Shown one piece after another: positions 58,748 to 64,000 of a stretch of DNA of 64,000 nt. The DNA comes from Pleionea sp. CnH1-48 (lineage in GTDB: Bacteria > Pseudomonadota > Gammaproteobacteria > Enterobacterales > Kangiellaceae), in NCBI RefSeq assembly GCF_024124665.1, contig NZ_JAMXSB010000005.1, positions 293,672 through 357,671 of the forward strand. Direction: 5' to 3'. The notes beneath the pieces are model-generated. The model saw nothing but the letters and a program-made list of their open reading frames with translations, did not search any database and had not been told where the DNA came from. The number at the start of each line of letters is the position of its first letter. The stretch's first letter is position 1. Made by a program: the position numbers and the translations under genes.

Positions 58748-59018
58748 TACTCCTGATTGTGCGGAGCAACTCGCTTCGCACTTTAGCCTATTTTTATACT
58801 CTTAAATTAAGCGAAACTGCCCCACACACCGCTTATTCTCTCACTTTTTACTAATTCGCCCCTAAAGCAAAGGTCTATTTCGGGGTCTAAATCTTTAAGG
58901 TAATAAAGTGATATTCTACAACTCAATAAACTACTCCTTGCTTGCATTCTATTGGTTTCCAATACTTTCTATTCTTGGTAAAATCTCGTTTCAATATATG
59001 ACAAGGAGTCATTAAATT

Positions 59019-60377
59019 ATGCAAGATAGAAGATATCTAAAACAGAAAAAAGAAGGCGGCGTGTATTTGGTTCAAATCGCTGTACCGACAGCATTACGTC
59101 ATCTAACAAATAACAAAGCCGTTTTAACACGTTCAACAGGAACAAATAATCTTAGAGAAGCCAGAGCGCATAGAGATGTCTTTTTGCGTGAATGGGAAAG
59201 TCTAAAACTACAAGCTGGAATAAACCCCAAAGGCCACCGTTTACGTTCTCTCGTAGCAGACCTTAAGCAATCTTATAAAGAATCGTTAGGAGATCATGAC
59301 ACGGCTCAAACTTGGCTTGATGGGCACGACCCTGAATATTATTACAACCAAGGCGATTTGATTATGGCAGACGCTATTAGAATTGCTAAGGGCGGCGAGG
59401 CTAAGTTTTCAGGTGTTCAAGAAGGTTACACACTTCCAGAAGTCGCTAAGGAGTATAGAAATACAATTCTAGGCAAGAAGTCCAATGACTACTTAATGAG
59501 AATATTTAAATCTGCGTCAAGGTGGGAAGAGTTTGATAAAGAATCTACACCTTTAAAAAATATTGGCAGAGCAAAAGTGGTTGATTTTATTGAGTACCTT
59601 TCAAAAGTTGAGGGGTTGAAACATAAAACCATTCGTGACATTTTATCAATCTTCAATAAAACATGGATTTATGCAACCAATAAAGAATATGTTATTGATA
59701 AAGCATCGCCGTTTACTGCTCACTCTTTAGATACTTTGAAAATCAACTCTTACGAAACGTTAACGCTGACTGAGTGGGAGGGAGTACTAAAACACTACAT
59801 TCCCAGATGTAAAACTATAGGAGCTAAGCTCTTTATGTTTCTGGGAATTAGCTCTGGTATGCGTATAGAAGAAATATCAGGACTTAGAAAAGGCGATGTA
59901 AAATATGTTGATGATGTATTATGCTTTCACGTTAATGATAAATATCGCTCTGTAAAAACCAAGAATGCAATTAGATATATTCCTGTTATGAATAGATACA
60001 TTGATGTAGTTAAAAAACTTGCAGAAGGAAATCCCGAAGACTTTTTATTTAATGAAGCAAGAAGAACTTCTAACAGGTTTGCGGGCTGGTTCAGTTATAA
60101 CATCAAAGAAGCTAAGCGAGCATTTGGAATAACATCACGTCAGAAATCATTCCACAGTTTAAGATGCAATATTGCAACAGCTTGTGAGAATGCCAAGATT
60201 GAAGAGCGAACCGCCGCGTGGCTTTGTGGACACTCTCACAATCAAACGTTAACTTACGGCTTATATTCAGACGGTGCAAATATTAAAGAAATCTTAAAAC
60301 CAGCCATAGATAAGGTTGAAAAGAAACTAGAACCTTTTTTACAGTTTGATAGCTTGGTGTTTAATACGGAGAAGTAA
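59019..60377 (+). CDS. tyrosine-type site-specific integrase
   Basis: 452 aa. Box I 'MRIEEISGL', box II 'FHSLRCNIAT', 'AAWLCGHS', catalytic Tyr region 'LTYGLY'. Confidence 0.8.
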   Translation: MQDRRYLKQKKEGGVYLVQIAVPTALRHLTNNKAVLTRSTGTNNLREARAHRDVFLREWESLKLQAGINPKGHRLRSLVADLKQSYKESLGDHDTAQTWLDGHDPEYYYNQGDLIMADAIRIAKGGEAKFSGVQEGYTLPEVAKEYRNTILGKKSNDYLMRIFKSASRWEEFDKESTPLKNIGRAKVVDFIEYLSKVEGLKHKTIRDILSIFNKTWIYATNKEYVIDKASPFTAHSLDTLKINSYETLTLTEWEGVLKHYIPRCKTIGAKLFMFLGISSGMRIEEISGLRKGDVKYVDDVLCFHVNDKYRSVKTKNAIRYIPVMNRYIDVVKKLAEGNPEDFLFNEARRTSNRFAGWFSYNIKEAKRAFGITSRQKSFHSLRCNIATACENAKIEERTAAWLCGHSHNQTLTYGLYSDGANIKEILKPAIDKVEKKLEPFLQFDSLVFNTEK

Positions 60378-60884
60378 AGAGGTGAGCTTAACGGCTCTCT
60401 TCTAACCCTTCATTTATGTCAACCTCTTTTCGAAGCCTTGAATCAGAGCATTTAGTATAGATACTTTTAAAACACTCCGATTCAAGCTTGCTAGCTCGCT
60501 ACTTCCAAAAGTAACAAAACGTGACTTTTAGGTTTTGGGAACCCCAATTCTTAAAAGCGATGAAACGTCGACTTTGAAAATCTAAAAAGAACAAGTTGTG
60601 CTTTTTGAACCGCCATAAAAAACACGCCACAACATAAAACAGGATTTCTTGTTACTCTTTCCCCTAAAACTACACTCAGCGGTTAGTCGCAATTTTTTGT
60701 CTCTGCCGTATCTTGATCAATGTGCATATTGCTCAGAAAACAACCGCACCCGAAATTTGTGGTGCGCCTAAAGCTTGGTTTTTATATATATTTACAAAAA
60801 GCGGTAAATTTAAACTCCGCGCTCATATTTATGTTATAAAAATAGAGGCCTATAGCAATTAACGGTAATAAGCATTTCTCTTAC

Positions 60885-61310
60885 TTAGCGTCTTCGTTTG
60901 ACTTCTTTTTCTAAAGCGTATACTTCACGGCATTTATGACAGAACTTTATTTTTGTCTTTTTTTTGTCTTCTTCCCAACACGGGCCATAGGCTACTAAAT
61001 TCACATGAGGGTATAGCATTTCAATTTTTTCTTGCTCACTTTTCGACGGAGGTATAACCGTACCATAAACCATCTCTACAGTGTCTTCTTGTAAATCTAC
61101 ATTATGAACATGGCAATACTCAAAAATTGACAGTAAGTGTTCATAATCACTAAAAGGATAATCAAACTTCTTTTGAAACCTTTCCCAAGCTTTCTCTTGC
61201 CAATAAAGCAACCGCTTTCCTTTTCCATCTATAAGCAAAGAGAGAAACTTTATATATTTCTCTTCTCCTAGCATTTCTCTAAACTGAAGTCTCACTGTTA
61301 GTTTATTCAT
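60885..61310 (-). CDS. hypothetical protein in integrative element
   Basis: 141 aa. Possible C-terminal Cys/His cluster (C..FCHKC). AT-rich codon usage. Confidence 0.35.
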   Translation of the reverse strand: MNKLTVRLQFREMLGEEKYIKFLSLLIDGKGKRLLYWQEKAWERFQKKFDYPFSDYEHLLSIFEYCHVHNVDLQEDTVEMVYGTVIPPSKSEQEKIEMLYPHVNLVAYGPCWEEDKKKTKIKFCHKCREVYALEKEVKRRR

Positions 61311-62071
61311 AACTTAAAAACACTGCTAATTGACTATTATTCACTCAGCAAGATGCCTAGTGAAGAAGGATATTTATAGCATAAATTTAAATACCTAAGA
61401 GAAACAATAGCTCATATCAACCCTGGTATTAGGCTATAAATATCGAATTACCTTTAAAAAACGTTTAGCTAACCTGCGGCCATGTAAATAACACTAGGCG
61501 GCGGTCTGAGAGGCTTTTATCTGTAGATATTTCTACCCCCTCCCCCTTAGAGATAAGATCTCAGAGAGGCTTATAAACAGCTTACAGATCACTTAAATCA
61601 GTACATGTGGCAGTCGTTAGTATTAGTGTTAAACCACCAGAGAAACTGTGCAAATCTGCATAATTCTTTTTTTAAGCGAATCTGAAATTTCCGGTTTGGT
61701 TATACAGCAGAATTTCTAAATACCCTGAAACGGGGCATTGAATAGAATACCCCAACATTCGAAATGGTAGTGTTCAAATGTCGGATATTCCTACTTTTAG
61801 GTGACATCAATGAGTTACAACAATACTTCACCTGATAGGGGTCGATGTTTCGTCGCCCCTCAACTCTGCATCAATAACACATCGCACTCAGGGCAACCTT
61901 TAAGCCAGACTTGAGAGTTCCTAACTGTCCTGAAACGAGACGGTCAGCAAATCCAAATACGGCGTTTCACCGTGTTTCAATATTATCAATAACTTACAAC
62001 GCACTCAGAGCTGACTTGTAAGCCGCTTGATGAAGCATTCAAAACTACCGAATAGGTACTTTTAAGTAAAA

Positions 62072-62785
62072 TCAATAACTTATAACTCCTTCTGACATTT
62101 CTAGCTTATCCGTAATCAAACGATTGTAGTTATAGCTCCTTACATCATCATTAGCAGGCTTTCTAAATGACACCTTGTTGCTCATAAATTCACAGTGCAA
62201 CGGTTCCTCTAGCTTCTTCTTTTCATGCTTATAACGCTGCTCCTTGCAGTATTCGGATAAGATAATTTGTTTCACTTCATCCTCGCTAACTTTAAGTATT
62301 GGAAACACATAAGCCACCTCGCCAGTGTCTTCATAAAAGGCTATATTCCCCTCTAATCGTATAACACTCTTTAGGTCTTCTGGTATCGGATAGTCCTGAA
62401 TACACAGCTCGTAGCTCTCTTCGGGCTCCTCAGAGCCAATACCTTCACCATCAGGCAATGTCCCTAACTCAAACACCTCTTGCCAATAGTCTCTTTCCTC
62501 GATATCCCATGCCCATCTTAAAGCAGGGTTAAGCATCAGATAGGACTTATCATAGATAGTTAACACCCTAGCCACTAAGCACCGTTCAAGCTCCTTAATC
62601 AGCCTGTAGTAAGCCGAATGGGAGAGCTTAAAGGTTTGATAGGGTTTCTTCGATAACACCAGTAAATTACATTTATCAGCTCTTGCAGCCACCTCCAGAA
62701 ATAGATTTAAAGCATTCTTGCTCATATTTAACTTAGCCACTCTTAGTAGCTCTGTGCTATCCATGCACGCGTATTTTCGTTTCAT
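62072..62785 (-). CDS. putative replication initiator of the integrative element
   Basis: 237 aa, basic N-terminus. The 5' end directly abuts the iteron field. Assignment is by context only. Confidence 0.4.
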   Translation of the reverse strand: MKRKYACMDSTELLRVAKLNMSKNALNLFLEVAARADKCNLLVLSKKPYQTFKLSHSAYYRLIKELERCLVARVLTIYDKSYLMLNPALRWAWDIEERDYWQEVFELGTLPDGEGIGSEEPEESYELCIQDYPIPEDLKSVIRLEGNIAFYEDTGEVAYVFPILKVSEDEVKQIILSEYCKEQRYKHEKKKLEEPLHCEFMSNKVSFRKPANDDVRSYNYNRLITDKLEMSEGVISY

Positions 62786-62885
62786 AAACCTCCTTATGAA
62801 TGAGTTTCAAAAAATGGGACAGCGTAAAACCTCTGCACACCTTACAGCACAAGGGCTATAGCCTAAAACACCGCCTTAACTTCCT

Positions 62886-63570
62886 ATTATTAAGAGAGAT
62901 TACCTTTAAGATTCTTAAGAACCTATAGCTTTATCTTTAAGACACCTATAGCAATAACAACAATGGTAAATTCTATTACACCTAATCTGAAATAAATCTT
63001 TAAGACATCTTTAAGATGGTCTAAGCGATGACTTAAGTTGTATCCATAGCTTAAAAAGTTTAAGAAATTTAATCAGCTATAACACCTATGACTTTGTAAC
63101 TATTGCTCATCCATTGAACATGTAATTAGTATATCGGCTATAGCTCCCTCTTAGGAGGCTTAAAGTTATCTTAAAGATAGCTCCTAGGTCAACTGCTTTA
63201 GATGGTGCTTATAACTACTGTTCTAATTTAACTCTTTCATACAAAATTCAATAGCCAATGACCAAAGAGCACTTTTAACAACACTCATAACCAAAACTGT
63301 TACATTAGTTTCTAAAGCTATAGAAGGTAGTGTCACACTTTTAAGTTCTCATCGCTTAGACTTTAATCAGCATCTTCTTTTTCAGTCCTTGAAAGGTGAA
63401 GTCCTAAGCCGTCTCATAGATGTGCAATAAACTTATCTTCATTGTTAAACGCTTATGATTAAATATTTAATTGTTCATCCTTTGAACATTGTAATTGGTG
63501 TATTACCTATAACTCCCTCATAGCCAAGCTAGAGATTATCTTAAAGATAGAGTTTAAGGTCAACTATGGT
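62886..63570. repeat. AT-rich iteron field / putative origin of replication
   Basis: At least 8 copies of TCTTTAAGA/TCTTAAAGA in both orientations, including tandem atctttaagac-atctttaagat at 62996-63019. Recurrent (g)ctatagc motifs. Two ~95-bp, roughly 75%-identical direct repeats at 63104-63195 and 63471-63568. Confidence 0.6.
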
Positions 63571-63605
63571 GTGGATATTTAGGCTAGGTCCATTAGCCAC
63601 TGTCA

Positions 63606-63896
63606 TCAATCCTCAAATACAGCCTCTTTGGGTAACTCCCAACCGTGCATATCTTCTGTTAGTAGAAAGTGTAATTCATCCATAGAAAGACTTTTTACTT
63701 GAGATGGTAACCAATTGTGCTTCTGAACCAGATAGTAATGTATAGCATCCATACCATTTAGACCTTGATATTTCTCTCGCCTTGCTAGTTCATCACCAAA
63801 GACAATGAGTGTATAATTTCGTTCTACACTGGTCTCAAATACTTTATGCACACTTCTATAAAATTCTCTTCTACTCATAATGCCTCCAACTAACAC
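63606..63896 (-). CDS. hypothetical small protein
   Basis: 96-aa ORF immediately beyond the iteron field. Confidence 0.3.
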   Translation of the reverse strand: MLVGGIMSRREFYRSVHKVFETSVERNYTLIVFGDELARREKYQGLNGMDAIHYYLVQKHNWLPSQVKSLSMDELHFLLTEDMHGWELPKEAVFED

Positions 63897-64000
63897 CGAT
63901 TAAACTATCAAGTAAACATTTCGAGATTTACAATTCACATAACAGCTTTATAAGATAATGTTTCTCTATCATATAAATATGCAGATAGAAAGTAGTCTTG

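What the first reader, a model, noticed from the sequence alone, without database searches (positions are those of the whole stretch)
58800..64000. Integrative element with tyrosine integrase, iteron origin and Rep-like gene, resembling a PICI/PLE-type satellite or integrated plasmid
Downstream of the core gene purT, GC drops abruptly. A tyrosine integrase gene (59019..60377) is followed by a sparse region in which about 2.3 kb of the roughly 5 kb is ORF-free. A dense iteron field lies immediately 5' of a 237-aa basic protein (62072..62785), the classic rep-ori arrangement. Integrase plus a self-contained iteron replicon is the hallmark of phage-inducible chromosomal islands and the Vibrio PLE satellites, which are hotspots for anti-phage cargo. 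The element continues past the window end, so its cargo is unseen. No tRNA or obvious direct repeat marks the left attachment site, so the insertion target is unknown.
Basis: partly seen in the sequence, partly recalled or inferred. Interest (0 to 1): 0.7.

Follow-up and report, generated by a model that had tools for sequence, protein, structure and literature searches.

The report
Integrase island with palindrome-array control region
This is the integrase end of a foreign DNA island in the marine bacterium Pleionea sp. CnH1-48, carrying an orphan DNA-binding protein next to an array of its likely binding sites; that pair may be a small replication module, but this is unproven and the island matches no known phage-satellite or plasmid family.

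Summary
At about 58,750, GC falls from 43.7% to 36.9% and long-ORF coverage from 90% to 48%. A catalytically intact tyrosine integrase lies at 59019-60377. The 820-bp non-coding stretch upstream of the 237-aa gene holds six copies of an 11-bp palindrome, ATCTTNAAGAT (0.09 expected). Two details are wrong: the gene is on the minus strand, and its protein is acidic (pI 5.3), not basic.

The window comes from Pleionea sp. CnH1-48. That genome has four more paralogous integrases and two more copies of the 237-aa gene. The 237-aa protein belongs to a very small orphan family and matches no Rep, Pfam, PHROG, plasmid or phage family. Only its N-terminal winged helix is modelled with confidence. Its named matches among viral structures are mostly replication initiators or organisers, whereas its PDB matches are mostly MarR/ArsR regulators.

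Two palindromes lie in the same position within duplicated promoter-like modules, like operators. No AT-rich unwinding element, DnaA-box cluster, helicase, primase, AlpA or packaging gene is visible.

Verdict: an integrative island is well supported. A helicase-less initiator with semi-palindromic iterons, as in PLE RepA, is plausible (about 0.4). A purely regulatory switch is about equally likely. No attR or cargo is visible within the window.

The parts
58748..59018 (.). Left junction and integrase upstream region. It holds the terminator-like hairpin of the 168-aa gene (about 58759-58783), the GC step, a promoter-like site for int (58956-58984), and one outlying copy of the palindrome at 58891-58901 (ATCTTTAAGGT). 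The attL core was not identified.
59019..60377 (+). Tyrosine integrase, 452 aa. Domains: DUF6538 at residues 8-60, SAM-like core-binding domain at 141-229, catalytic domain at 250-411. R282, K313, H379, R382, H405 and Y416 are invariant in all 5 paralogues; their assignment as the catalytic residues is my own reading of the box I/II motifs. The protein is 100% identical to a Pleionea sp. CnH1-48 protein.
60435..60488 (.). Long imperfect hairpin (about 20 bp) between the convergent int and 141-aa genes. Sliding 120-nt windows give z = -4.7; the 171-nt fold gives z = -3.2. It could be a bidirectional terminator or a protein or recombination site; function unknown.
   Evidence: (I17)
60885..61310 (-). 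Orphan gene of 141 aa, alone in its 90%-identity cluster. It has a weak AbrB/MraZ-like N-terminus (E=0.003) and a Cys/His-rich C-terminus (weak zinc-finger Pfam hit, E=0.037), and no Shine-Dalgarno sequence. NCBI annotates it directly after int.
61369..61444 (.). A 16-nt inverted repeat, 94% complementary with a 44-nt spacer, just upstream of the promoter-like site of the 141-aa gene (61364..61336). It contains GCTATA half-sites.
   Evidence: (I11)
61792..62095 (+). Second repeat set, on the 3' side of the 237-aa gene. Units containing ATCAATRAS-TTAYAAC start at 61806, 61870, 61985 and 62071; two of them match the IHF consensus. The last unit contains the final 7 codons and the stop codon of the gene. 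A terminator-like hairpin lies at 61973..61959 (-).
   Evidence: (D2, D4)
62072..62785 (-). Gene for a 237-aa acidic protein (pI 5.26) with a strong Shine-Dalgarno sequence (AAGGAGG). The N-terminal winged helix (residues about 10-110) has pLDDT 65-90. A conserved central motif reads GNIxFYxDTGEVA. The C-terminus is modelled with low confidence. It belongs to a very small orphan family.
62786..63605 (.). An 820-bp non-coding control region.
- Palindromes ATCTTNAAGAT at 62902, 62933, 62996, 63007, 63168 and 63538. Three of them (62902, 63007, 63168) have a second, in two cases degenerate, site about one helical turn away.
- CTATAG palindromes at 62856, 62923, 62946, 63138 and 63318.
63102..63192 (-). 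Repeated module 1: -35 TTGACC, the palindrome across the spacer and a degenerate -10 (GATAAC), then GAGGGAGCTATAG, then TGTTCA-N5-TGAGCA.
   Evidence: (D11)
63470..63563 (-). Repeated module 2: a sigma70-like promoter, TTGACC-17-GATAAT (10 of 12 matches), with the palindrome ATCTTTAAGAT across the spacer and -10. It is followed by GAGGGAGTTATAG and the perfect TGTTCA-N5-TGAACA.
63606..63878 (-). A 90-aa gene (ATG at 63878, preceded by GGAGG) for an ECs1072-family phage-associated protein, below that family's threshold (NCBIfam E=3.3e-10; PHROG 5286 E=2.2e-6). Homologues sit in the early region of a lambdoid prophage and next to an integrase in an IMG/VR contig.

Best explanation
Positions 58.75-64.0 kb are the integrase-proximal arm of a horizontally acquired integrative element of Pleionea sp. 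CnH1-48. It lies directly downstream of a 168-aa gene next to purT and runs off the window.

Shown:
- The tyrosine integrase is intact.
- The element belongs to a family with several copies in this one genome. The paralogous integrases are 93-100% identical over the N-terminal 140 residues but only 50-65% identical in the core-binding domain.
- An 820-bp non-coding region carries six 11-bp palindromes, five CTATAG palindromes and two 92-nt repeated promoter-like modules. It lies directly upstream of a gene for a winged-helix protein.

Inferred mechanism:
- The winged-helix protein binds the ATCTTNAAGAT palindromes as a dimer. Since the palindrome crosses the spacer and -10 of the duplicated promoter-like modules, binding would repress the protein's own transcription. 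A seventh site upstream of int could link int expression to the same protein.
- After Int excises the element, the same array of bound sites would serve as the origin. The protein would act as an initiator or organiser that lacks helicase and primase and recruits host or helper-phage replication proteins. This is how RepA_N/DnaD-type initiators such as PLE RepA work.

The DNA-binding and autoregulation half is better supported than the replication half. My estimates are: integrative element about 0.9; cognate protein-site pair about 0.6; replication initiator about 0.35-0.4.
For: Island:
- GC step and coding-density drop.
- Integrase domains, with invariant residues at the positions I assign as catalytic.
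- Phage-associated 90-aa gene.
- Five paralogous integrases and three copies of the 237-aa gene in the same genome, with mosaic integrase identity.

Protein-site pair:
- Confident winged-helix fold.
- Six palindromes against 0.09 expected, none of the exact 10-mer elsewhere in 64 kb.
- Centre spacings of 31, 63 and 11 bp among the four gene-proximal sites are close to whole helical turns (arithmetic on the coordinates).
- The palindrome overlaps the spacer and -10 of a 10/12 promoter-like site and sits at the same place in the duplicated module.

Initiator reading:
- In the viral structure library, 10 of the 11 matches with function-specific names are replication proteins (RepL, plasmid replication initiation protein, replication initiator A, replisome organiser), with E from 1.6e-4.
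- RepA_N structures 4pql, 4pt7 and 4pta appear among the PDB matches.
- P0008 hits the PHROG 'DnaD-like helicase loader' (E=0.0046), and one member hits HTH_36 (E=0.14).
- Homologues in L001 and L002 also follow 700-840-bp ORF-free regions next to a serine resolvase. L001 also carries a weakly DUF6538-type integrase.
- PLE RepA is a published initiator with no helicase or primase that binds semi-palindromic iterons in a non-coding region (PMC7145576).
Against: - No replication family is hit at any usable threshold.
- There are no homologues in PLSDB plasmids or INPHARED phages.
- The top PDB fold matches are MarR/ArsR/HlyU/CodY-type regulators. The RepA_N hits rank lower and are not discriminating.
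- Only residues about 10-110 are modelled well; overall mean pLDDT is 58.
- No 40-nt stretch reaches 87.5% AT. Only two single 1-mismatch DnaA boxes and no GATC cluster occur in the array.
- The palindromes' positions in promoter-like modules are what operators look like.
- The promoter-bearing modules lie 320-780 bp upstream of the gene, an odd layout for either model.
- The repeats shared by L001 and L002 (AAACGGACGT) may be resolvase res sites rather than sites for the family protein. Enrichment of CTTAAG-type cores in those loci is marginal.
- Integrase and the 237-aa gene do not always travel together: there are five integrases but three gene copies, and only two pairs share a contig.
Confidence: 0.4

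Rival explanations
1. The region is a purely transcriptional switch. The 237-aa winged-helix protein, or another factor encoded by the element, is a repressor or activator. The palindromes are its operators on two tandem promoters and upstream of int, as in a prophage or satellite immunity region. No replication function is involved.
For: - The sites are 11-bp palindromes, as expected for dimeric HTH regulators.
- Two of them cross the spacer and -10 of duplicated promoter-like modules.
- One lies upstream of int.
- The top PDB fold matches are MarR/ArsR/HlyU/CodY regulators.
- Two further palindrome types, CTATAG and TGTTCA-N5-TGAACA, suggest control by several factors.
- No origin hallmarks were found.
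Against: - The gene is not divergent from what it would control. All visible genes except int run the same way.
- The four gene-proximal sites lie in what would be the 5' leader, not at a detected promoter.
- The viral fold matches favour replication-type winged helices.
- The conserved long upstream non-coding region and the neighbouring resolvase in homologues look plasmid-like.
- Initiators commonly autoregulate, so operator-like sites do not exclude an origin (established knowledge of iteron plasmids; PMC7145576).
Confidence: 0.35
2. The palindrome array is a centromere-like partition site, a recombination-accessory site or a packaging site. Examples would be a parC-like array of 11-bp repeats around a promoter, or binding sites for a recombination directionality factor. 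It would be neither an origin nor an ordinary operator set.
For: - Units are 11 bp, some doubled one helical turn apart, and flank promoter-like elements. From my own knowledge, this resembles R1 parC.
- One copy lies in the int-proximal arm at 58891.
- IHF-consensus repeats lie nearby at 61984 and 62070.
Against: - No ParA/ParM-type NTPase, Xis/AlpA or terminase was found among the annotated ORFs or the ten small ORFs tested.
- The array lies about 4 kb from the left junction, too far for integrase arm sites unless attR is close, and no att repeat was found.
Confidence: 0.08
3. The element is a member of a described satellite family (PICI, cfPICI, PLE, P4-like or PICMI), or an integrated classical iteron (Rep_3-type) plasmid.
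For: - An integrase at the edge of a small, sparsely coding, AT-rich block, with a repeat field and a DNA-binding protein.
- PICMIs also have large non-coding regions (PMC10803314).
- A homologue-bearing contig (L001) carries a TIR-domain protein of the defence-associated CAP12/Pycsar effector family.
Against: - No AlpA, primase (DUF3987/DUF5906), Pri-Rep, Psu/Delta/Sid/alpha, TerS or RepA_N/Rep_3 hit in any visible ORF.
- PLE uses a large serine recombinase, whereas this integrase is a tyrosine recombinase (PMC7145576).
- No relatives were found in IMG/VR, phage or plasmid collections.
- Insertion is not at fis or a tRNA.
Confidence: 0.07
4. The block is a decayed, immobile remnant. Its low coding density reflects pseudogenisation, and the repeats are relics with no current function.
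For: - 47% of the block is non-coding, with 37-49-aa ORF fragments that hit no family.
- The 141-aa gene lacks a Shine-Dalgarno sequence.
- Degenerate copies of the 3' end of the 237-aa gene lie downstream of it.
Against: - The integrase is full length, and the residues I assign as catalytic are invariant across five paralogues.
- The 237-aa and 90-aa genes are intact with strong Shine-Dalgarno sequences.
- Five palindromes are exact 10-mers.
- The paralogues are 83-98% identical, implying recent spread or homogenisation.
Confidence: 0.1

Closest known systems
[quoted passage not shown]
   Same: Both are integrated elements of marine Gammaproteobacteria. Both have a large non-coding region with several repeat types. 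In PLE the initiator has only a winged-helix DNA-binding N-terminal domain and a C-terminal domain with no detectable similarities, with neither helicase nor primase, and its iterons are semi-palindromic (PMC7145576). Here the winged helix gives weak DnaD-like sequence hits and non-discriminating structural matches to RepA_N structures.
   Different: PLE integrates with a large serine recombinase, whereas this element has a tyrosine integrase. No PF06970 (RepA_N) hit was obtained. Origin function is demonstrated for PLE and untested here. The sites here overlap promoter-like modules. No PLE-like genes are visible.
PICI / SaPI-type and P4-like satellites
   Same: An integrase lies at one edge, the visible part is compact and sparsely coding, and these are element types in which anti-phage cargo is common.
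   Different: P4-like satellites are defined by int plus Psu, Delta, Sid, AlpA, Ash and the alpha primase-helicase. PICIs are defined by int, a regulator, primase-replicase, a capsid-morphogenesis gene and terS (PMC10085698). None of the non-integrase markers is detected in the visible 5.2 kb.
PICMI (minimalist marine satellites of Vibrionaceae)
   Same: Both occur in marine Gammaproteobacteria, have a tyrosine integrase at the edge, few genes and large non-coding regions (PMC10803314).
   Different: PICMIs are defined by int, alpA and a primase, and typically insert downstream of fis. Here no alpA or primase is seen, and the insertion is next to purT and a 168-aa gene.
Iteron-controlled theta plasmids (Rep_3/RepE/pi type)
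   Same: A Rep gene is preceded by repeated binding sites, the initiator has a winged helix, and it autoregulates through an inverted repeat at its promoter (established knowledge).
   Different: Classical iterons are asymmetric 17-22-bp direct repeats at regular spacing, next to an AT-rich region and DnaA boxes. Here there are 11-bp palindromes at irregular spacing with no AT-rich element or DnaA cluster. There is no Rep_3 hit and no plasmid homologue.
Temperate-phage immunity/operator regions
   Same: Multiple palindromic operators overlap promoters, and the region sits close to int in an integrated element.
   Different: There is no divergent repressor/cro gene pair. The candidate binding protein is a 237-aa acidic winged-helix protein rather than a CI/Cro-type HTH protein, and four sites lie away from any detected promoter.

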